This document shows positions 33,941 to 45,481 of a DNA stretch of 62,953 nucleotides, one piece after another (positions within the stretch are counted from its first letter, which is position 1; the number at the start of each line of letters is the position of its first letter). The notes below the pieces were generated by a model that ran no database searches, was not told the DNA's origin, and saw only the letters and a list, made by a program, of their open reading frames with translations. Made by a program: the position numbers and the translations under genes. This stretch comes from Candidatus Pacearchaeota archaeon. Lineage in GTDB: Archaea; Nanobdellota; Nanobdellia; Pacearchaeales; GW2011-AR1. Location of the stretch: assembly GCA_017609085.1 (NCBI GenBank), contig JAFCEO010000001.1, forward strand, positions 1-62,953. Reading direction: 5' to 3'.

Positions 33941-34025
33941 CGCCCGCGCCGGGATTCGAACCCGGATTGTAGCCGTTCTGCCAATGGTCGACAGGGCTAA
34001 GTGCTAGCCATTACACCACGCGAGC
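33941..34025 (-). tRNA. tRNA-Asp (anticodon GUC) with a 13-nt intron
   Basis: The minus strand folds as GCTCGCG/TG/GTGT-AATGGCTA-GCAC/T/TAGCC-CTGTCG[ACCATTGGCAGAA]C-GGCTA/CAAT/CCGGG-TTCGAAT-CCCGG/CGCGGGC/G. Anticodon at 33992-33990. Confidence 0.75.
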
Positions 34026-35417: not shown

Positions 35418-35575
35418 TCCCACCACCAGGATTCGAACCTGGGATCTTCCGGGTACAGCATGGCTTTTAGGGTTTCATATTCTCCCGTGGGAAAAATCCA
35501 CCTTAGACAATGAGGATTTACTTCAATCCTAAAAGTTGTCTACAGCCGGACGCTCTACCACTGAGCTATGGTGGG
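35418..35575 (-). tRNA. tRNA-Tyr (anticodon GUA) with an 86-nt intron
   Basis: The minus strand folds as CCCACCA/TA/GCTC-AGTGGTA-GAGC/G/TCCGG-CTGTAGA..[86 nt]..CCGGA/AGATC/CCAGG-TTCGAAT-CCTGG/TGGTGGG/A. It has the C1:G72 pair typical of archaeal tRNA-Tyr. Anticodon at 35543-35541. Confidence 0.85.
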
Positions 35576-35705: not shown

Positions 35706-37091
35706 TTACTCTTCCGCCCTAATGCCTCTTGGCTCGCTTAAAAAGAAAACACGGTTGGAGGAAGTTTCTTTTATTTTTTCGTTTCTCTCATAAATAGCTT
35801 TTGCTGGGGGCAATTCGAACTTTCCCACAATTCCTATTTTAGAATATATTATATAAGAAAGAATTGTTTCTTCCCCCTCCCTTAAACTTTCGATATTCCA
35901 TTCTATTCTCCTATTCTTTTCGTCGATTCTATCTGGAGCTATAGTTCCATATCTCTCATACAGCTTTACTATTGGAGGAAGCTTATCGATAATATTTATT
36001 TTTTCAGCAGACCTTCTTGCTTTAACATTTATAGAAACTTTTAGAGCAAATTCTCCTCCTTTTGTTTTAACCAGACTTATTTTCTTTTTTAATATTATAT
36101 CCGATATAAAATAGGTTTGGGCTAAAAAAATCATCATTATAATAACTATTATAATGGCTATTGGAATGAGCCAGTTTGTTTTTGCTATAACGGTCAGGCT
36201 GTCATCAGGTCTTAGTTCCTCTCTCCAAGTATAAAAAACAATAAAGCCTTTTCTCTCCGCTTTATCAGGGGGGAGATTAAAACTTGTAAATAAACGCGAA
36301 ATTACATTTTTAGCGATAGTTATTTCAGCCAGGCTTATTAAATTTCCTTCATTTTTCTTTTTAATCTCATATCGAGAAATAAGCCAGCCTTCTTTGTGCT
36401 CTTCTGTCAATAAATCTGATTTTTCTAAAAATTTAATCGTCGATTTAATAGTCTCCGAGACATTGTCTATCTTTATGTTTGCGTCCAATATATAAGGCCC
36501 CGCCACTAACGTTTTAAGTTTTTCTTTATTTATTTCTGTTGTAAAAGACTTTTTTTCTAAAGATGATAGAGAAAAGTTTTCTTTAAAGTTAAAAAATACA
36601 GAAGAAAATTCTGCTTCTATATTCTCAAAATCAAAATTTTCAAGATTTTGAAGATAAATTACAGCTTCATTATCTTCTGGATTTATATTGTCTGCAGAAA
36701 GGTAAAAAATATCTTTTAAATTTACAAGCTTTATTGTTAATCTGTCTTCTTGTATTCCCGAGGAAGACTTAATCTTATAAACAAAATTAAAATATCCCGA
36801 ATTTTTCTTTACACTTTCTAAGGCATTCACTTTAACAGTCAATTTTTTTACTTCTCCTTTGTCTAAATGAAATGCTTTTTTTGGACTTATTTCTACTCCG
36901 ACAAGAGAGTAAAGCTCAAAATTATCCTCTTCACCAAGATTTTTTATCGTAAATTCAAATTGTGCAGGATTATCAAGTTCTTTTATGATTACATCATTTA
37001 TCGGATTTTTTTCTATCTTTAGATTTATTGCAAAAACAGAACTCATTAAACTAATAACAAATATAATTAAAAGAATAAATTTTTTTCCCAT
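35706..37091 (-). CDS. Surface/membrane protein (signal peptide, beta-rich ectodomain, one internal TM)
   Basis: 461 aa. Signal MGKKFILLIIFVISLMSSVFA, TM WLIPIAIIIVIIMMIFLAQTYF. No enzymatic motif. Confidence 0.6.
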   Translation of the reverse strand: MGKKFILLIIFVISLMSSVFAINLKIEKNPINDVIIKELDNPAQFEFTIKNLGEEDNFELYSLVGVEISPKKAFHLDKGEVKKLTVKVNALESVKKNSGYFNFVYKIKSSSGIQEDRLTIKLVNLKDIFYLSADNINPEDNEAVIYLQNLENFDFENIEAEFSSVFFNFKENFSLSSLEKKSFTTEINKEKLKTLVAGPYILDANIKIDNVSETIKSTIKFLEKSDLLTEEHKEGWLISRYEIKKKNEGNLISLAEITIAKNVISRLFTSFNLPPDKAERKGFIVFYTWREELRPDDSLTVIAKTNWLIPIAIIIVIIMMIFLAQTYFISDIILKKKISLVKTKGGEFALKVSINVKARRSAEKINIIDKLPPIVKLYERYGTIAPDRIDEKNRRIEWNIESLREGEETILSYIIYSKIGIVGKFELPPAKAIYERNEKIKETSSNRVFFLSEPRGIRAEE

Positions 37092-37172: not shown

Positions 37173-37676
37173 TTATGAATGCTTTCCTTCCAGTGCAAGG
37201 AAACTTTTAACTTGTGCAATAACTTCATCGACCTCTCCAACCAACTTGTCTTCATAGTCTTCTATTCTACTTTTAATAATGTATCTTTCATATATTCCTC
37301 TTAAAAATTTAAGAAGAGGGCTGTTTTCCCATCTGTGCTCGTAGTCTTTTTCAAGTATTGCTGTAAATTTTATTTCTACATCTCCTTTATTCATCTTTAT
37401 CTTCGCCCCCTCTTTTTGAACCTCTACTTCTGTCAATCCGAGAACGCGCCAATTGGCCTTAATTATAAACCTAAAGTAATCAGATATCTTTTTTTTAGCT
37501 TCCCATTTAATTTCAATTTCTTTTCCATTTGGTTTAATTTTTTCTGTGTACCCTTTTTCTGTAATACTATAGCCTTTATCAACAAACCAATCATAGAGGA
37601 AGCGATATGTTTCTTTAAAATCCCAAATTCCTGTATATTTTGTTTTGCCTGAAAAAACCTCATCTTTCTCTGCCAT
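37173..37676 (-). CDS. Hypothetical soluble protein
   Basis: 167-aa ORF directly upstream of, and co-oriented with, 35706-37091. Confidence 0.5.
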   Translation of the reverse strand: MAEKDEVFSGKTKYTGIWDFKETYRFLYDWFVDKGYSITEKGYTEKIKPNGKEIEIKWEAKKKISDYFRFIIKANWRVLGLTEVEVQKEGAKIKMNKGDVEIKFTAILEKDYEHRWENSPLLKFLRGIYERYIIKSRIEDYEDKLVGEVDEVIAQVKSFLALEGKHS

Positions 37677-40143: not shown

Positions 40144-41541
40144 ATGGCAAATAATGATATACGCCCGGCTTTATCGAATTATGTTGGCGAGAGAGCACCA
40201 CAAATACTGAAACGTATAACTGGAGAATCTGTAGAGAACATCGAAATAAATAAACAGGGGATAGAAGTCATTAAAAGAGGTTTAGTTTCTAGTGTAGCTT
40301 CTTTATCACTTGGATATAAAAGTCACCAAACAGGCCAATCTGGAGAAATAAAGGTGTTAATAAAGTATTTTCCTGCATCAGAAGGAAAAAGCCATTATAA
40401 AGACTCTGCTCAGAGCACAGAAAATATTTGTCTTTTTTTAAGCGGAAGCGATTATTTTCCTGAATTTTATTTTGCTGATAGAACAAATTCAGGAACTTTC
40501 TTATTTCTCCAGCATATTGGAGAGAAAACACTTTATGATTTTCTGTTAGATTATAAAGGAGATATTACAGACTTATTACAAGCAATATTGCCTAGTATAT
40601 CTAAATTTCAAATAGATGCTACAAGAAGACTCTGGGAAAAAAGAGAATCTTTAACTAAAGAAAAGTACGAAAGTATATTCAAAAGAAGATCTTCAACTAG
40701 AAGAATAATAGATTACATAAGAGCAATTAAAGGAAAAAAAAGAGTAGAGGAGGTAGACAAAAATCTTGTAAACAAAGTTATTAAGTTGACTGTCCCAATA
40801 CAGAGAATATACATCCCCCGAAGCGACTCTTTCAGAGTTACTCATGGGGATCCTATAACTAAAAACATCATTTGTATGGAGGGAGGGTCTTATGGATTTA
40901 TAGATGCAGATCCCTTTTTAGGATTACCAGTTTCTGATCTTAGTGCCTTGCTTTCTACACCTGGTTTAAAATTAAATCCCAAAGATTGGTGGTTTTTAAC
41001 AGATGTATTTTTGGTTAATGACAAGAAAAAATTAGATGACATATTAGAAGAAATGCCTAAGAGTCTGAATTCGATGAGGCCTGAAATATTTCAAAGACTT
41101 TCGAAATTAGGAATAAAGTTCGATACCGAAGAAATGCCTGGAAACGAAAAATATTGTACTTTTATGGGAATCTTTTTTAGAAGTGCTAGGGTCTTGGCTA
41201 AGATTAGCGATTTAAGAAATAACCATAAAGAGATGTACGAAAAAATGGAGGCGGAAGATAAAACTTTAAAAGAAGCTTTTGGAGAGATGAGAAAAAATAT
41301 GGCTCTCTCTTTAGACTCTGTCGTTAACAATCCTCGAGCTTTTGAAGTGTCTCGCTCAGAATATGTAGATAAATTAGGAGAGTTTCAAGAATTGCTAATA
41401 GAAGAAGAAGTAATTGAGCCTACAAATAGGTATCTAAAGAACAATAAAAAAAATGGAAGGGGCGGAGAAATTTCTTCTCAAAATTTAGAAGTTTCCGAGA
41501 AAAATCCTCGGTTTAATTTTAATTATACTCCATTACAATAA
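40144..41541 (+). CDS. Kinase-like phosphotransferase (APH/ChoK fold)
   Basis: 465 aa. Catalytic-loop-like VTHGDPITKNI and FIDADPF (HGD...N / D motif). The start is 1 nt after the PhoU-like gene stop. Confidence 0.65.
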   Translation: MANNDIRPALSNYVGERAPQILKRITGESVENIEINKQGIEVIKRGLVSSVASLSLGYKSHQTGQSGEIKVLIKYFPASEGKSHYKDSAQSTENICLFLSGSDYFPEFYFADRTNSGTFLFLQHIGEKTLYDFLLDYKGDITDLLQAILPSISKFQIDATRRLWEKRESLTKEKYESIFKRRSSTRRIIDYIRAIKGKKRVEEVDKNLVNKVIKLTVPIQRIYIPRSDSFRVTHGDPITKNIICMEGGSYGFIDADPFLGLPVSDLSALLSTPGLKLNPKDWWFLTDVFLVNDKKKLDDILEEMPKSLNSMRPEIFQRLSKLGIKFDTEEMPGNEKYCTFMGIFFRSARVLAKISDLRNNHKEMYEKMEAEDKTLKEAFGEMRKNMALSLDSVVNNPRAFEVSRSEYVDKLGEFQELLIEEEVIEPTNRYLKNNKKNGRGGEISSQNLEVSEKNPRFNFNYTPLQ

Positions 41542-41649: not shown

Positions 41650-43263
41650 ATGGCGGAAAAACAACCTATTTTTATATTGCCAGAGAATGTGCAGAGAATA
41701 ATCGGAAAAGACGCACAAAGAAATAATATAATGGCTGCACGACTTGTGGCAGATTCTATTAAAACTACTCTTGGTCCTAAAGGAATGGACAAGATGTTAG
41801 TTGATTCTCTTGGAGATATAACAGTTACTAATGACGGAGTAACAATCTTGGAGGAAATGGAAATTGAGCATCCTGCTGCAAAAATGATGGTCGAAATAGC
41901 CAAGACGCAGGAGGATGAAGTTGGAGACGGAACTACAACAGCTGTAATGTTGGCGGGCAAGCTTCTTGAAAATGCTGAGAAGTTATTAGATAATAAAATA
42001 CACCCAACTGTAATAACTAAAGGTTACAGGTTGGCGGCAGAAAAAAGCCAGGAAATTTTGAAAGAATTGGCTGTCGATATTAATCCAGAACAAGAAGAAG
42101 TATTAAAACAAATAGCAATGACTGCTATGACTGGCAAAGGTGCAGAAACAGTCAAAGAAAAATTTTCAGATATTATAGTTAAAGCTGTTAAACAAATTGC
42201 AGAAAATAACAAAATAGATTTAGACAATATTAAAATAGAGAAAAATAAAGGTTCTGGTTTGGCAGAAACAGAGCTTATAGAAGGGATAGTTTTTGACAAA
42301 GAAAAGGTTTCAGTTGATATGCCTGATAAAGTAGAAAACGCAAAAATAGCTTTACTTGATTTAGCTTTAGAAATAAAAAGTCCTGAGGTAGATACAAAAA
42401 TTTCTATAAGCAGTCCTGAACAATTACAGGGGTTTATTGAGCAAGAGGAGAAAATTTTGAAAGAAATGGTGGAAAAAATTAAACAAGCTGGAGCAAATGT
42501 TGTTTTTTGTCAAAAAGGTATAGATGATGTAGCTCAATATTATCTTTCAAAAGAAGGAATTTATGCCTGTAGAAGAGTGAGCAAAAGTGATATGGAAAAA
42601 CTTGCAAGAGCTACGCAAGGAAAAATTATCAGTAATTTAAATGAATTAACTTCAGACCAACTTGGTTTTGCGAAGATGGTTGAGGAAGTGAAGAAAGGAG
42701 AAGATACTTATACCTATGTAAGGGGATGCGAAAATCCTAAATCCTTAACTATATTGATACACGGAGGAACAGAACATGTCTTAGACGAGATGGAGAGAGC
42801 GATTAAAGACGGATTAGGTGATGTCGCTTCTGCTTTGAGAGAAGGAAAAGTAGTTGCAGGAGCAGGAGCAGTAGAGGTAGAATTGGCGAGAAGACTACGG
42901 GAATATAGCAAAACTTTGGGCGGAAGAGAGCAGCTGGCGATAGAAGAATTTGCTTCTGCATTAGAATTTATCCCAATAACTTTGGCGGAAAATGCAGGAC
43001 TTGACCCTATTGATACTCTAACAGAACTGAAGGCAGCTCACGAGAATGAAAAGTATGCAGGAATAAATATATTTACAGGGAAAGTAGAAAATTCTCTTAA
43101 GGAAGGGATTATTGAACCTCTTAGAATAAAAAGTCAAGCAATTAACTCTGCATCAGAAGTTGCAATGATGATTTTAAGAATAGACGATGTTCTTGCTTCT
43201 GGAAAGAGCAGTAGCGGAGGAATGTCTTCTCAAAATATGCCTCCAACTGCTGATTATGATTGA
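41650..43263 (+). CDS. ths: Thermosome subunit (group II chaperonin)
   Basis: 537 aa. [24 protein letters not shown] and ITNDG motifs. Confidence 0.95.
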
Positions 43264-43349
43264 AAAAATTAAGAATTGAGTATCTATGGATAATTTTTGT
43301 AAAAAATTCATAACAATCTTTAAAAATCTTGTTCTTTTTTTAATATTAA

Positions 43350-43462
43350 GCGCGAGTAGTATAGTGGCAGTACGCAACGTTGCCACATCTCCTTCACTCT
43401 AGCCTATATAAAAGGAGAAATGTAAAAACGTTGTAACCCGGGTTCGAATCCCGGCTCGCGCA
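43350..43462 (+). tRNA. tRNA-Gly (anticodon GCC) with a 42-nt intron
   Basis: Folds as GCGCGAG/TA/GTAT-AGTGGCA-GTAC/G/CAACG-TTGCCA[42 nt]A-CGTTG/TAAC/CCGGG-TTCGAAT-CCCGG/CTCGCGC/A. Anticodon at 43382-43384, intron at 43386-43427. Confidence 0.8.
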
Positions 43463-43530
43463 TATTATTTATCAATATTTTCAATTTTTTTAATATTTTT
43501 ATTTAAGTTAAGTAGTAAAGATTTTGCGAA

Positions 43531-43542
43531 AAATTATAAATA
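43531..43542 (+). promoter_or_regulatory. TATA box candidate upstream of the sigma-like gene
   Basis: AAATTATAAATA lies 27 nt upstream of ATG 43569. Confidence 0.4.
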
Positions 43543-43568
43543 CCTCTCTTTCTTGTTAACATTATAGA

Positions 43569-44228
43569 ATGAAAAAAAGCAGAAGCGTTCTAAGAGAAAT
43601 TTTGATGAAATATAAGAAAACACATGATCCTAAATTAAGAAATCAGATAATGGATTCTTATACTTCTCTTGTTGAAAAAATAGCTTATCACCTTCATAAA
43701 AAAATTTATTTGAAAAGAATTGTGGATTTAGAAGACCTTATTCAATTGGGAAATTTGGGACTAATGGATGCAATTGAGAGTTACAATTCAAATAACGGTG
43801 GTATGAGTTTTGAAGAATATGCGAAAAAAAAGATAGGTTGGAAAATTATAGATGAATTAAGAAGATTGAAGTTAATACAGTATAGATCTCGTAAAAATCC
43901 TCCCTCTCTCTTAAACTTTAGTGAAATAAATTTTTATGGTAATTCTCATGGAAGATGCTTTATTGAAAATATTTTTGAAGACAAGAATTATATTTCTCCC
44001 GAAGATAAAATAGAGAAAAAAGACACAATGGAGTTTCTTACAGAAGGATTGAATAGAACTGAAAAATTGATATTAAAGTTATACTTCTTTCAGGGTTTCA
44101 CTTTTCAAGAAACAGGAAAAGTTGTGGGTCTTACTGAAGCACGAATCTCTCAATGTTGCCAGCAAGTTCTTTCAAAGATTAGAATAAGGTTAAAAAATAG
44201 AAATGTTTCTTATTACGATTTTGTTTGA
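43569..44228 (+). CDS. Sigma-70 family protein, sigma-28 (FliA/WhiG)-like
   Basis: 219 aa. Region 2 is DLEDLIQLGNLGLMDAIESYN...MSFEEYAKKKIGWKIIDELRRL. Region 4 HTH is LNRTEKLILKLYFFQGFTFQETGKVVGLTEARISQCCQQVLSKIR. Confidence 0.8.
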   Translation: MKKSRSVLREILMKYKKTHDPKLRNQIMDSYTSLVEKIAYHLHKKIYLKRIVDLEDLIQLGNLGLMDAIESYNSNNGGMSFEEYAKKKIGWKIIDELRRLKLIQYRSRKNPPSLLNFSEINFYGNSHGRCFIENIFEDKNYISPEDKIEKKDTMEFLTEGLNRTEKLILKLYFFQGFTFQETGKVVGLTEARISQCCQQVLSKIRIRLKNRNVSYYDFV

Positions 44229-44275
44229 TTTTGCCAACTAAAAGTTTAAATAATAATTAATTTTTATTTTTATTT

Positions 44276-44545
44276 ATGAATGAAGAAGACGAATTAAAAA
44301 AGAAACTTGAAAACTATTCTAAAAGATGCGGAATAAGATTGAATCCCAATGAAAAAATTGTTAATGCTATAATTAAAGGATTGATTAAAAATAAAAAAGA
44401 AAAAGGAGAGTATTACTGTCCCTGTAGAGTCCCTTCTGGCGATAAAGAAAAAGATAAAGAGATAATATGCCCCTGCGTCTTCCATAGAGGGGAAGTAGAG
44501 TTACAAGGAAAATGTCATTGCGGTTTGTTTGTTGCTAAATCTTAA
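44276..44545 (+). CDS. Ferredoxin:thioredoxin reductase catalytic-subunit-like protein
   Basis: 89 aa. CPC..(n)..CPC..(n)..CHCGLF cysteine pattern. Confidence 0.75.
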   Translation: MNEEDELKKKLENYSKRCGIRLNPNEKIVNAIIKGLIKNKKEKGEYYCPCRVPSGDKEKDKEIICPCVFHRGEVELQGKCHCGLFVAKS

Positions 44546-44846: not shown

Positions 44847-45081
44847 AACAAAGAAACCAAATCTAACTTTAAATAAATTTCTATTAATATTGATTTAATA
44901 CAAATAATATATACATAAGCTATATAAATAATTTTTACTCTAAAACAACATGAATGGGCACACGAATGTAAAGAGAATTTCGAATTCTTTAAGAGTCATA
45001 TTTCTATGTGCCTATAATAAGGTGATTAAATTTATGTAATTCCCGCTAATTTTCCGGGAATTGCACGATTTTTCTGTTAAA

Positions 45082-45481
45082 ATGTTAAAAAAAAGTTATA
45101 TGGTGCTTGAATGGTTTTCAGAGTGCCTCAACTGTCACGAAGTTATTTTCAATCCTATTTGTCCTGCTTGTTTAGCAGTAGAGATAGAAGCCTGGTTACA
45201 ACCAATTTTTCCTTATCATAAAAAAAATAACGAAAAAAATTGAAGATTATATTAGAAAAACAAATAATCTTGCAAGCAAGACAGGCAAATTAACAAAATG
45301 CATTTCCTGTAGGAAATTATCAGTTTCACTTTGTCCTTACTGTTTCACCGAATATGTTTTCAATCTTTTGAAAAAGATTAAGGTAAATAAAGCAATCTTA
45401 AAAGAATTCTTAGAATTTTTTAATTATGATTTTGAGCATACGGGATATAGCAAAGATGCTGAGGAGTTAGGTGCAATTTAA
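45082..45481 (+). pseudogene. Zinc-ribbon protein (four CxxC pairs) split by a +1 frameshift in a poly-A run
   Basis: The N part is MLKKSYMVLEWFSECLNCHEVIFNPICPAC..PYHKK. It continues in another frame as ..KKIEDYIRKTNNLASKTGKLTKCISCRKLSVSLCPYCFTEY..EELGAI. Both frames are open across 45188-45243, and the A8 run lies at 45220-45227. Confidence 0.5.

What the first reader, a model, noticed from the sequence alone, without database searches (positions are those of the whole stretch)
43569..44228. Bacterial sigma-28 (FliA/WhiG)-type sigma factor gene embedded in an archaeal chromosome
Seen: the 219-aa ORF has sigma-70 region 2 (DLEDLIQLGNLGLMDAIESYN..FEEYAKKKIGWKIIDELRRL, compared with FliA ..DLIQ.G..GL..A...YD...G..F..YA..RIRGAM.DELR) and the region 4 HTH (LNRTEKLILKLYFFQGFTFQETGKVVGLTEARISQCCQQVLSKIR). 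It sits 300 nt downstream of the thermosome gene and 107 nt downstream of an intron-containing tRNA-Gly. It has the same AT-rich codon usage as its neighbours, and an archaeal-style AAATTATAAATA box lies 27 nt upstream. Known: archaeal RNA polymerase uses TBP and TFB, and sigma factors need the bacterial core enzyme. tRNA genes are common integration points for foreign DNA, and the neighbours (FTR-like, YbjQ) are also bacterial-flavoured. Inference: this is a horizontally acquired and domesticated sigma-like protein. It could act as a plain HTH regulator, or it could interact with a bacterial partner's RNAP if the organism is an episymbiont. I cannot verify from memory whether such genes have been formally described in DPANN genomes.
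Basis: partly seen in the sequence, partly recalled or inferred. Interest (0 to 1): 0.75.

Follow-up and report, generated by a model that had tools for sequence, protein, structure and literature searches.

The report
Bacterial-type sigma factor gene in an archaeon
A small archaeon of the Pacearchaeota/Woesearchaeota group carries an intact, selectively maintained gene for a shortened bacterial-type sigma factor. Such genes have already been reported in these archaea, and what they do without a bacterial RNA polymerase is still unknown.

Summary
ORF 43569-44228 (+, 219 aa) passes Pfam Sigma70_r2 and Sigma70_r4 and the sigma-70 superfamily model. It folds confidently as sigma2 plus sigma4 joined by a disordered 45-residue linker, and it has no sigma3. 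Its closest families and solved structures are FliA/WhiG, but it fails FliA/WhiG membership: it scores 117 bits against a 189.6 cutoff, lacks region 3, and has KIGW and KLIQY in place of RIRG and DWxPR.

The contig is archaeal on both sides and belongs to the Pacearchaeota/Woesearchaeota group (thermosome up to 86% identical to such MAGs). The gene matches its neighbours in GC3 and has the same TATA-box promoter layout.

Only one true ortholog turned up among 1.84 billion representative proteins (40% identity). It too sits directly upstream of an FTR-like gene that is native to Pacearchaeota. dN is 0.45 with synonymous sites saturated, which indicates purifying selection. No viral, defence, tRNA-integration or flagellar context was found, and sigma28-type promoters are not enriched.

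Castelle et al. 2021 already reported sigma-70 genes in DPANN archaea, with no anti-sigma factor and no known mechanism. This is therefore a new member of a known kind. My best guess at its function is a co-opted DNA-binding regulator. Interest is moderate.

The parts
43569..44228 (+). Sigma-70 family gene, 219 aa, with two domains. Sigma2 is roughly aa 5-99, sigma4 roughly aa 144-210, and aa 100-143 form a disordered linker. There is no sigma3.
   Evidence: ORF. Pfam r2 and r4 above their cutoffs. TIGR02937 above its cutoff, with FliA/WhiG the best families but below cutoff. AlphaFold2 mean pLDDT 86.4. All top Foldseek PDB matches are sigma factors.
43496..43544 (+). Promoter region of the sigma gene. 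It holds a T-rich/AAGTAGT block (43496-43519) that is conserved with the ortholog locus, then GATTTTGC (43520-43527), an A-rich stretch, and the TATA box TTATAAATACC (43534-43544). 26 nt separate the box TTATAAATA (43534-43542) from the ATG.
   Evidence: Sequence. The same TATA-to-ATG layout is seen at many genes of the window. The block matches L002 at 20 of 24 positions and TATAAATACC is identical; ten shuffles gave a maximum of 18-19 of 24. That this is a promoter is inferred, not shown.
43350..43462 (+). tRNA-Gly(GCC) with a 42-nt intron, the upstream neighbour. It is not part of the conserved module.
   Evidence: Rfam tRNA, 55.3 bits. Anticodon and intron read from the sequence. No repeat of its 3' end occurs downstream. 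The ortholog locus has no tRNA.
44217..44236 (+). 10-nt tandem duplication (GATTTTGTTT / GATTTTGCCA) spanning the sigma stop codon. Without it the C-terminus would read YYDFAN*, matching YADFAN* in the ortholog.
   Evidence: Alignment of the sigma-FTR junctions. Interpretation from the sequence.
44245..44253 (+). TATA box TTTAAATAA of the FTR-like gene, 22 nt upstream of its ATG and identical in the ortholog locus.
44276..44545 (+). Gene for an FTR-like protein (ferredoxin:thioredoxin reductase catalytic subunit-like, CPC...CPC...CHC motifs), 89 aa. It is the conserved downstream partner of the sigma gene.
   Evidence: Pfam FeThRed_B, 84 bits. The ortholog locus L002 also has sigma followed by FTR, and the FTR proteins are 54% identical. 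The family is widespread in Pacearchaeota.

Best explanation
The ORF is a real, expressed-looking and selectively maintained gene in a Pacearchaeota/Woesearchaeota-type DPANN archaeon. It descends from a bacterial group-3 (FliA/WhiG/SigD-like) sigma factor that was taken up by horizontal transfer. Since then it has lost sigma3 and the sigma-28 promoter-specificity motifs, acquired an archaeal TATA-box promoter, and settled directly upstream of a native FTR-like redox gene. That arrangement is kept in the one other known member of its lineage.

The most likely function is inferred, not shown. I think it no longer acts as a canonical sigma, because no bacterial core enzyme is seen here. Instead it probably works as a sequence-specific DNA-binding transcription regulator, using its intact sigma4 helix-turn-helix and perhaps sigma2, on promoters that the archaeal TBP/TFB/RNAP machinery reads. 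Its own promoter and that of the adjacent FTR-like gene are the obvious candidate targets. Short motifs specific to this lineage, in the linker (NFSxINxYxxSH) and at the C-terminus (LKxRNxxYxDF), would serve new partner contacts.
For: Identity:
- Pfam r2 and r4 and TIGR02937 are above their cutoffs.
- The AlphaFold2 model has pLDDT above 90 in both domains, and only sigma factors appear among the top Foldseek matches.
- The best PDB sequence matches are WhiG 7lq4 and 6pfv and FliA 9wsf and 6pmi.

Bacterial ancestry:
- Apart from the one ortholog, the best of 9522 hits are proteins of about 250-290 aa, 30-39% identical. The few checked carry region 3.
- These hits lie next to CheC/CheD or PilZ genes and are named FliA/WhiG, one from a Bacillota bacterium.

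Archaeal host:
- The window carries a thermosome, three intron-containing tRNAs, the archaeal ThrRS editing domain, aIF5B, Elp3, FEN1, DTD2, TrmB and Trm5.
- The thermosome is 86/82/81% identical to Woesearchaeota/Pacearchaeota MAGs.
- The left flank is syntenic with about 40 relatives, and the right flank (FTR ... A2M-like ... aaRS) with L087.

Domestication:
- GC3 is 0.228, like the neighbours.
- The TATA box sits at the same distance from the ATG as at other genes of the window.

Maintenance:
- The ortholog P0007/L002 is 40% identical over its full length, and identities cluster in regions 2.2, 2.4 and 4.2, the linker and the C-terminus.
- The sigma-FTR order is the same in both loci.
- dN is 0.45 and pS is 0.74 (saturated). 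For FTR dN is 0.36.

Not a canonical sigma-28:
- There is no r3 and the score is below the FliA_WhiG cutoff.
- Four of the E. coli sigma-28 DNA-contact residues listed by Shi et al. are lost: R58->S71, T69->E83, R98->P112, K208->Q180. RIRG has become KIGW and DWVPR has become KLIQY (using the E. coli sequence from memory).
- GCCGATAA-like -10 elements are not enriched: 35 observed against 30.6 +/- 5.4 expected.
- The window holds no flagellar, FlgM or bacterial RNAP genes.
Against: - No binding site, target gene or partner has been shown. The regulator role rests on general knowledge that archaeal regulators are mostly bacterial-type HTH proteins.
- Region 2.2, the surface that binds the beta-prime clamp helices in bacteria, is well preserved (DLEDLIQLGNLGLMDAIE). 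A plain HTH regulator would not obviously need this.
- GATTTTGC lies just upstream of both TATA boxes, but it occurs at chance frequency in the window (4 observed, 4.3 expected). The copy at the FTR promoter is explained by a recent 10-nt duplication of coding sequence.
- Only two members of the lineage exist, so the conservation statistics are thin.
- Closer relatives by FTR identity (76-79%) lack the sigma gene. It is therefore dispensable or patchily inherited.
Confidence: 0.55

Rival explanations
1. The protein still works as an initiation or specificity factor, but on the archaeal RNA polymerase. Sigma2 would dock on the Rpo1 clamp coiled-coil, which is homologous to the beta-prime clamp helices, and sigma4 would read DNA. 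It would modulate or compete with TFE, TFB or Spt4/5.
For: Region 2.2, the core-binding helix, is strongly conserved and resembles sigma-70 (sequence). The two-domain sigma2-linker-sigma4 layout matches minimal functional (ECF-type) sigmas. The disordered linker carries a conserved motif, as expected for a segment that contacts a partner. Purifying selection acts on the whole protein. Castelle et al. found no anti-sigma factor and left the mechanism open.
Against: I know of no precedent for sigma binding an archaeal RNAP. N62 and M66 of region 2.2 are not kept in the ortholog. G..GL..A is also a structural core motif, so its conservation need not reflect core binding. The gene is absent from close relatives, so it cannot be a general factor.
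Confidence: 0.1
2. It is a bona fide sigma factor that acts on a bacterial RNA polymerase, for example after delivery into a bacterial host or partner of the episymbiont.
For: It has an intact sigma2 and sigma4 fold. DPANN archaea are generally thought to be symbionts (abstract of PMC8204110).
Against: By eye, the N-terminus (MKKSRSVLREILMKYKK) has no signal-peptide-like hydrophobic stretch; no predictor was run. The sigma-28 specificity residues are lost. The gene has an archaeal promoter and sits among housekeeping genes. Known DPANN hosts are archaea. No secretion genes lie nearby.
Confidence: 0.04
3. It is a decaying or functionless relic of a transfer, or a passenger of a mobile element or provirus.
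For: Its distribution is patchy: one ortholog among 1.84 billion representatives, and it is absent from 80 related thermosome loci and from FTR loci 65-79% identical. DPANN proviruses carrying rpoS-like genes have been reported (PMC12647753). A 10-nt duplication lies at its stop codon, and a neighbouring gene is frameshifted.
Against: The ORF is intact and the fold is confident. dN is far below the saturated dS across 40%-identity divergence, at a rate close to that of the native FTR gene. Promoter blocks are conserved. There are no integrase, att repeats or phage genes, no close viral relative and no defence-system context.
Confidence: 0.12
4. It is an assembly or binning artefact: a bacterial fragment joined to archaeal DNA.
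For: Synteny with relatives breaks exactly between the thermosome and the FTR-like gene. A conserved tRNA gene lies at that point and could seed a chimeric join.
Against: The sigma gene is contiguous with 18.7 kb of archaeal genes to its right. The sigma-FTR junction is reproduced in an independent assembly from another sample (L002). GC and GC3 are uniform. The promoter is archaeal-type. L060 shows the thermosome lying 3.7 kb from the g11-g13 pair, as in the window. A join at the tRNA would at worst link two Pacearchaeota genomes and would leave the sigma gene archaeal.
Confidence: 0.03

Closest known systems
Sigma-70 family genes reported in DPANN archaea (Castelle et al. 2021, Front Microbiol, PMC8204110, family fam00359, 'particularly prevalent in Woesearchaeota')
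   Same: A sigma-70 family protein encoded on a contig with archaeal marker genes in the Woesearchaeota/Pacearchaeota group. There is no anti-sigma factor nearby and the mechanism is unknown. NCBI already labels such proteins 'sigma-70 family RNA polymerase sigma factor [Candidatus Pacearchaeota archaeon]'.
   Different: This one belongs to a tiny lineage of its own: two members, with the next relatives 30-39% identical. It derives from FliA/WhiG-like ancestors and is paired with an FTR-like gene. The only other sigma found in 80 related loci (L045) is RpoD/RpoS-like and just 28% identical, which points to separate acquisitions. Whether this protein falls inside fam00359 could not be checked.
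Bacterial sigma-28 / FliA / WhiG / SigD (group 3 sigma factors; PDB 6pmi, 9wsf, 1rp3, 6pfv, 7lq4)
   Same: These are the best-scoring families and solved structures. The protein shares the region 2.2, 2.3 and 2.4 framework (F81, Y84, D95, R98, R108) and the region 4.2 HTH, including R192, which corresponds to E. coli R220.
   Different: It has no sigma3 and scores 117 bits against a cutoff of 189.6. RIRG has become KIGW and DWVPR has become KLIQY, and four DNA-contact residues are lost. There is no flagellar, chemotaxis or FlgM context, and sigma-28 promoters are not enriched. The host has archaeal transcription machinery.
ECF (group 4) sigma factors
   Same: The same minimal architecture: sigma2, a flexible linker and sigma4, about 200 aa. 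The end-to-end match to the TIGR02937 'sigma70-ECF' superfamily model is above its cutoff.
   Different: Its sequence affinities lie with group 3, not with any ECF family. No co-encoded anti-sigma factor is present.
rpoS-like sigma genes on DPANN proviruses (Nat Commun 2025, PMC12647753)
   Same: Sigma-70 family genes associated with DPANN genomes.
   Different: Nothing here looks viral: no integrase, att sites or phage proteins, and no close relative in IMG/VR. The affinity is FliA/WhiG-like, not RpoS-like.

Membership tests
Sigma-70 family (superfamily level) | Region 2 (sigma2) domain detected by a curated profile | tested here: met
   Pfam Sigma70_r2, aa 29-101, 34.2 bits against a cutoff of 24.
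Sigma-70 family (superfamily level) | Region 4 (sigma4) helix-turn-helix detected by a curated profile | tested here: met
   Pfam Sigma70_r4, aa 160-205, 37.5 bits against a cutoff of 24.1.
Sigma-70 family (superfamily level) | Whole-protein match to the superfamily model and a sigma fold | tested here: met
   TIGR02937, 81.7 bits against a cutoff of 42.9. AlphaFold2 pLDDT 86.4. All 50 listed Foldseek PDB matches are sigma factors.
Sigma-70 family (superfamily level) | Binds bacterial core RNA polymerase and directs promoter-specific initiation | not testable with these tools
   None of the roughly 45 ORFs of the window scanned against Pfam is a bacterial RNAP subunit. The rest of the genome is not available.
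FliA/WhiG (sigma-28, group 3) | Score at or above the curated family cutoff (TIGR02479, 189.6 bits) | tested here: not met
   117.2 bits. NF005413 FliA gives 112.3 against 201, and NF004935 WhiG gives 114.3 against 343.
FliA/WhiG (sigma-28, group 3) | Presence of the sigma3 domain (region 3) | tested here: not met
   No Sigma70_r3 hit. aa 100-143 are modelled without secondary structure, and pLDDT is below 50 over aa 110-131. Bacterial hits match in two stretches separated by their r3.
FliA/WhiG (sigma-28, group 3) | Family motifs RIRG...DELR...DWxPR and the -10/-35 contact residues | tested here: not met
   The window has KIGW...DELR...KLIQY. Lost: R58->S, T69->E, R98->P, K208->Q. Kept: R84, R94, R220, and R74 and R95 as K (with the E. 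coli FliA sequence taken from memory; its numbering agrees with all 13 residues named).
FliA/WhiG (sigma-28, group 3) | Flagellar, chemotaxis or developmental gene context with an FlgM/RsiG anti-sigma factor, and TAAA-N15-GCCGATAA promoters | tested here: not met
   No such genes in the window. -10-like sites are at chance level, 35 against 30.6 +/- 5.4.
ECF (group 4) sigma factors | Two-domain sigma2-sigma4 architecture with sequence membership in an ECF group and a cognate anti-sigma factor | tested here: inconclusive
   The architecture is met. The best specific families are group 3, not ECF. No anti-sigma candidate lies next to the gene.
DPANN archaeal sigma-70-like proteins (Castelle et al. 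2021) | Sigma-70 domains on a contig whose other genes are phylogenetically archaeal (DPANN), with no anti-sigma factor | tested here: met
   Archaeal markers lie on both flanks and the thermosome is up to 86% identical to Woesearchaeota/Pacearchaeota MAGs. Synteny holds on both sides. Formal membership in fam00359 could not be checked.

The most novel reading that the evidence does not exclude
A bacterial-type sigma factor has been co-opted into archaeal transcription as a true RNA-polymerase-binding factor. Sigma2 docks on the archaeal clamp coiled-coil and sigma4 reads DNA, giving some Pacearchaeota a sigma-like promoter-selectivity switch on top of TBP/TFB/TFE. The adjacent thioredoxin-system genes suggest it could be tied to redox or proteostasis stress.
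Probability: 0.07. Interest if true: 0.9.

Novelty: new member of a known kind. Interest (0 to 1): 0.42.

Why it matters
Sigma factors are the hallmark of bacterial transcription initiation, whereas archaea use TBP, TFB and TFE. A sigma gene kept under selection in an archaeon therefore asks what the protein binds. The occurrence of such genes in DPANN archaea is already published, so the finding itself is not new.

This analysis adds a concrete, testable example:
- It has a minimal sigma2-linker-sigma4 form derived from FliA/WhiG.
- It has an archaeal promoter.
- It is paired with an FTR-like redox gene, and the pairing is conserved.
- It carries conserved motifs specific to its lineage.
- Pacearchaeota appear to have picked up different sigma types independently.

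It is a good candidate for DAP-seq and RNAP-binding experiments that could settle whether archaeal sigma-like proteins are ordinary regulators or something more unusual.

Tried and rejected
- tRNA-targeted integration was rejected. The only other match to the tRNA 3' end is another tRNA, there is no integrase, and the ortholog locus has no tRNA.
- Viral or defence origin was rejected. PHROGs gives only generic sigma families. PADLOC gives only a weak region-2 match to MzaA. IMG/VR has only partial region-2 matches at 31-48% identity.
- The first genome-collection scan with the two-sequence sigma alignment found nothing, because the tool picked variable stretches as search patterns.
- The metagenome scan returned only generic FliA at 32% identity or less, and none of those loci has an adjacent FTR gene.
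- The FTR-like protein as a sigma-specific partner or anti-sigma factor was rejected. FTR is widespread in Pacearchaeota without a sigma gene.
- GATTTTGC as a shared operator stays unproven. It lies upstream of both TATA boxes, but the FTR-side copy comes from a recent 10-nt duplication of the sigma C-terminal coding sequence and is absent from sigma-less FTR promoters.
- The donor clade could not be resolved. The top bacterial hits form a flat 95-115 bit plateau and few carry names; one is from Bacillota.
- The supplement of Castelle et al. held as text does not contain fam00359.
- A literature search for archaeal FTR-like proteins gave nothing usable.
- The window's own protein could not be traced to a public record.
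Full report
**1. Observation**

- Pfam finds Sigma70_r2 over aa 29-101 (34.2 bits, cutoff 24) and Sigma70_r4 over aa 160-205 (37.5 bits, cutoff 24.1).
- NCBIfam places it above the cutoff of the sigma-70 superfamily model TIGR02937 (81.7 against 42.9). The best specific families are FliA_WhiG, WhiG and FliA, all far below their cutoffs (117 against 189.6, 114 against 343, 112 against 201).
- The thermosome gene ends at 43263.
- Rfam reports a 113-nt tRNA at 43350-43462. Read by hand, it is tRNA-Gly(GCC) with a 42-nt intron after position 37.
- The box AAATTATAAATA lies at 43531-43542, 26 nt before the ATG.

All the stated facts are therefore correct.

**2. Structure and anatomy**

An AlphaFold2 model built on 71 homologs has mean pLDDT 86.4.
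- A helical sigma2 domain covers roughly aa 5-99 and a sigma4 HTH domain roughly aa 144-210. Both have pLDDT mostly above 90.
- About 45 residues with no predicted secondary structure join them, and pLDDT is below 50 over aa 110-131. There is no sigma3 domain.
- The 50 listed Foldseek matches in the PDB are all sigma factors.
- By sequence the nearest solved structures are WhiG (7lq4, 6pfv) and FliA (9wsf, 6pmi, 1rp3).

I compared the protein with the E. coli sigma-28 residues that contact promoter DNA (Shi et al., bioRxiv 10.1101/2020.01.02.893370). The E. coli sequence came from memory, and its numbering agrees with every residue named in that paper.
- Kept: R84 (R98 here), R94 (R108) and R220 (R192). 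R74 and R95 are kept as lysines.
- Lost: R58 (S71), T69 (E83), R98 (P112) and K208 (Q180).
- The near-invariant RIRG motif reads KIGW, and the family's DWxPR motif reads KLIQY.
- Region 2.2 (DLEDLIQLGNLGLMDAIE) is very well preserved.

The protein is thus a two-domain derivative of a group-3 sigma with altered promoter-reading residues. It does not qualify as a FliA/WhiG family member.

**3. Is the setting really archaeal?**

Pfam scans of about 45 ORFs across the window found typical archaeal genes on both sides:
- FEN1, Trm5/TYW2, DTD2, HerA and TrmB;
- the thermosome;
- a ThrRS with the archaea-specific editing domain;
- Elp3 and aIF5B.

Three tRNAs carry introns. GC content is about 0.30 throughout.

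The thermosome is 86%, 82% and 81% identical to those of MAGs titled Candidatus Woesearchaeota or Pacearchaeota archaeon. All 80 loci retrieved are archaeal and nearly all are DPANN.

The gene order to the left (two conserved unknown genes, CBS, CBS, PhoU-like, thermosome) recurs in about 40 of those relatives. The order to the right (FTR-like, small zinc-ribbon gene, A2M-like on the minus strand, class Ib aaRS) recurs in loci found through the FTR-like protein.

Synteny with relatives breaks exactly between the thermosome and the FTR-like gene, which is where the tRNA-Gly and the sigma gene sit. That could in principle reflect a chimeric join at the tRNA. Several results argue that the sigma gene is archaeal regardless:
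- It is contiguous with 18.7 kb of archaeal genes on its right.
- The sigma-FTR junction is reproduced in an independent assembly (section 4).
- One relative (L060) has the thermosome 3.7 kb from the same g11-g13 gene pair as in the window.

Contamination or misassembly is therefore very unlikely to explain a sigma gene in archaeal DNA.

**4. Relatives**

A full HMMER search of 1.84 billion representative proteins gave 9522 hits at E <= 0.001, but only one close relative, P0007.
- P0007 lies on a 1.5-kb contig from a different sample, SRR32194794 (locus L002).
- Reading the DNA shows the ORF continues upstream and is interrupted only by a 1-nt shift in an A-run.
- The repaired protein is 224 aa and 40% identical to the window protein over its whole length.
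- Identities cluster in regions 2.2, 2.4 and 4.2. Two further motifs are specific to this lineage: NFSxINxYxxSH in the disordered linker and LKxRNxxYxDF at the C-terminus.

In L002 the sigma gene is likewise followed directly by an FTR-like gene, 54% identical to the window's. It is preceded by the end of what reads like an M48/HtpX peptidase gene; that identification rests on the C-terminal motif HPSLEKRIEILERM and not on a profile hit.

All other hits are 30-39% identical.
- Most are about 250-290 aa and match the query in two stretches. The few that were checked carry region 3.
- Those examined sit in bacterial motility contexts, next to CheC-CheD or PilZ genes.
- Those with names are called FliA/WhiG, one of them from a Bacillota bacterium.

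Scans of JGI metagenomes and IMG/VR found nothing closer. None of those 85 loci has an FTR gene beside the sigma gene.

**5. The FTR-like neighbour is native**

The 89-aa FTR-like protein has more than 900 homologs at E <= 1e-5. Many are 60-79% identical, and several are named as coming from Candidatus Pacearchaeota or Nanoarchaeota.

In three such loci the order is M48 peptidase, zero to two intervening ORFs, then FTR. A LemA gene lies just upstream of M48 in one locus family and about 1 kb away in another. None has a sigma gene. The sigma gene therefore occupies a slot directly upstream of a resident gene.

It is found in two lineages whose FTR proteins are only 54% identical, yet it is absent from lineages whose FTR is 65-79% identical to the window's. 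This patchiness implies repeated loss or transfer within the group.

Among 80 thermosome loci from relatives (about 1.2 Mb) only one other sigma gene was found, in L045. It is also directly downstream of the thermosome and is followed by a VIT1-like gene and a thioredoxin reductase gene. That protein is RpoD/RpoS-like, 28% identical to the window's, and is itself an orphan. Pacearchaeota therefore seem to have acquired different sigma types more than once. The recurrence next to chaperone and thioredoxin-system genes is noted but not tested.

**6. Signs of domestication and selection**

- GC3 of the sigma gene is 0.228, against 0.215-0.275 for ten other genes of the window.
- Many genes of the window have a TTTAAATA or TTATAAAT box roughly 20-35 nt upstream of the ATG, which suggests short or absent leaders. 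The sigma and FTR genes follow the same pattern.
- About 50 nt upstream of the sigma gene is conserved with L002: 20 of 24 positions in one block, plus an identical TATAAATACC. Ten shuffles reached 18-19 of 24 at most. The promoter has evidently travelled with the gene.
- Between the two orthologs dN is 0.45 and synonymous sites are saturated (pS 0.74). For the FTR gene dN is 0.36. The sigma gene is thus under purifying selection of a similar order to a native gene.

**7. What it probably does**

Shown: it is a conserved two-domain sigma-family protein with no visible viral, defence, flagellar or anti-sigma context, and sigma-28-type promoters are not enriched in the window.

Inferred:
- By eye the N-terminus shows no signal-peptide-like hydrophobic stretch, so I take the protein to be cytoplasmic; no predictor was run.
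- No bacterial core enzyme is seen here, and archaeal regulators are generally bacterial-type HTH proteins.
- The most economical reading is that it now acts as a sequence-specific DNA-binding regulator alongside the archaeal machinery. Its own promoter and the FTR promoter are candidate targets.

I give this about 0.55.

The strong conservation of the core-binding helix (region 2.2) and of a linker motif keeps open the more unusual possibility that it docks on the archaeal RNAP clamp (about 0.1 as a rival, 0.07 in the full form stated as the novel case). Action on a bacterial partner's polymerase (about 0.04), a functionless relic or mobile-element passenger (about 0.12) and an assembly artefact (about 0.03) are less likely, for the reasons listed with each rival.

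A candidate shared motif, GATTTTGC, lies just upstream of both TATA boxes, but it is weak evidence. It occurs at chance frequency overall, and the FTR-side copy stems from a recent 10-nt tandem duplication at the sigma stop codon.

**8. Comparison with what is known, and novelty**

Castelle et al. 2021 (PMC8204110) reported sigma-70 family genes (fam00359) in newly reconstructed DPANN genomes and called them 'particularly prevalent in Woesearchaeota'. They ruled out mis-binning, found no anti-sigma factors and called the mechanism unclear. NCBI already annotates such proteins in Pacearchaeota MAGs. A 2025 study reported rpoS-like genes on DPANN proviruses.

The core finding is therefore already known in kind, and this gene is a new member.

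New here are:
- the FliA/WhiG ancestry combined with loss of sigma3 and of the sigma-28 specificity motifs;
- the conserved pairing with an FTR-like gene;
- the evidence for purifying selection;
- the indication that different sigma types were acquired independently.

Interest is moderate (0.42). The gene is a clean experimental entry point to an open question but not a new discovery.

Noticed in passing
L045 11586-13940 (Candidatus Pacearchaeota archaeon QQ_201901_bins_15, JAWAEI010000001.1): A second, unrelated sigma-70 family gene sits directly downstream of the thermosome gene. It is 249 aa, has an RpoD/RpoS-like region 2 with WWIR, lacks region 3, and has no close relatives. A VIT1-like gene and a thioredoxin reductase gene follow it. 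Two different sigma types thus lie next to chaperone and thioredoxin-system genes in Pacearchaeota.
   Followed up: partly
window 44217-44236: A 10-nt tandem duplication (GATTTTGTTT / GATTTTGCCA) spans the sigma stop codon. Without it the C-terminus would read YYDFAN*, as in the ortholog (YADFAN*). The displaced copy now lies just upstream of the FTR TATA box.
   Followed up: yes
window 43520-43527 and 44227-44234: GATTTTGC occurs four times in the window, which is chance level. Two of the four copies lie immediately upstream of the TATA boxes of the sigma and FTR genes. L002 has the reverse complement (CAAAATC) at the matching place in its sigma promoter. This may be a shared operator or a coincidence.
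   Followed up: partly
L002 266-290: The ortholog's reading frame is shifted by 1 nt in an A-run between its likely ATG (266) and the rest of the ORF. The database therefore holds only a 169-aa fragment. This is either a sequencing error in a raw Logan contig or a real frameshift.
   Followed up: partly
window 45061-45478 (+): A conserved small double zinc-ribbon gene (122-133 aa in L087, L090 and L092, always downstream of FTR) is split into two overlapping ORFs by a frameshift in the window.
   Followed up: partly
window 33941-34025 (-), 35418-35575 (-), 43350-43462 (+): Three of the four tRNA genes are longer than the 71-nt tRNA model (85, 158 and 113 nt). This implies inserts of about 14, 87 and 42 nt, presumably introns. 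Rfam finds them, but ARAGORN in its default mode reports only the intronless tRNA-Thr.
   Followed up: partly
window 35706-37091 (-) and 37173-37676 (-): A pair of genes (461 aa and 167 aa) with no Pfam match is conserved at 40-75% identity and in the same order across about 40 Pacearchaeota/Woesearchaeota loci near the thermosome gene.
   Followed up: no
window 40144-41541 (+): A 465-aa ORF between the PhoU-like gene and the thermosome has no Pfam match. Its only detectable homolog among the 80 related loci is in L017, at 26% identity. This slot seems to be variable.
   Followed up: no
window 43263-44276 compared with L007-L012 and L087-L093: The thermosome's 3' end is a synteny breakpoint. 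The closest relatives share everything upstream of it but nothing in the 10 kb downstream. The window's right half matches loci where M48 precedes FTR, with LemA further upstream in two of the three locus families.
   Followed up: yes
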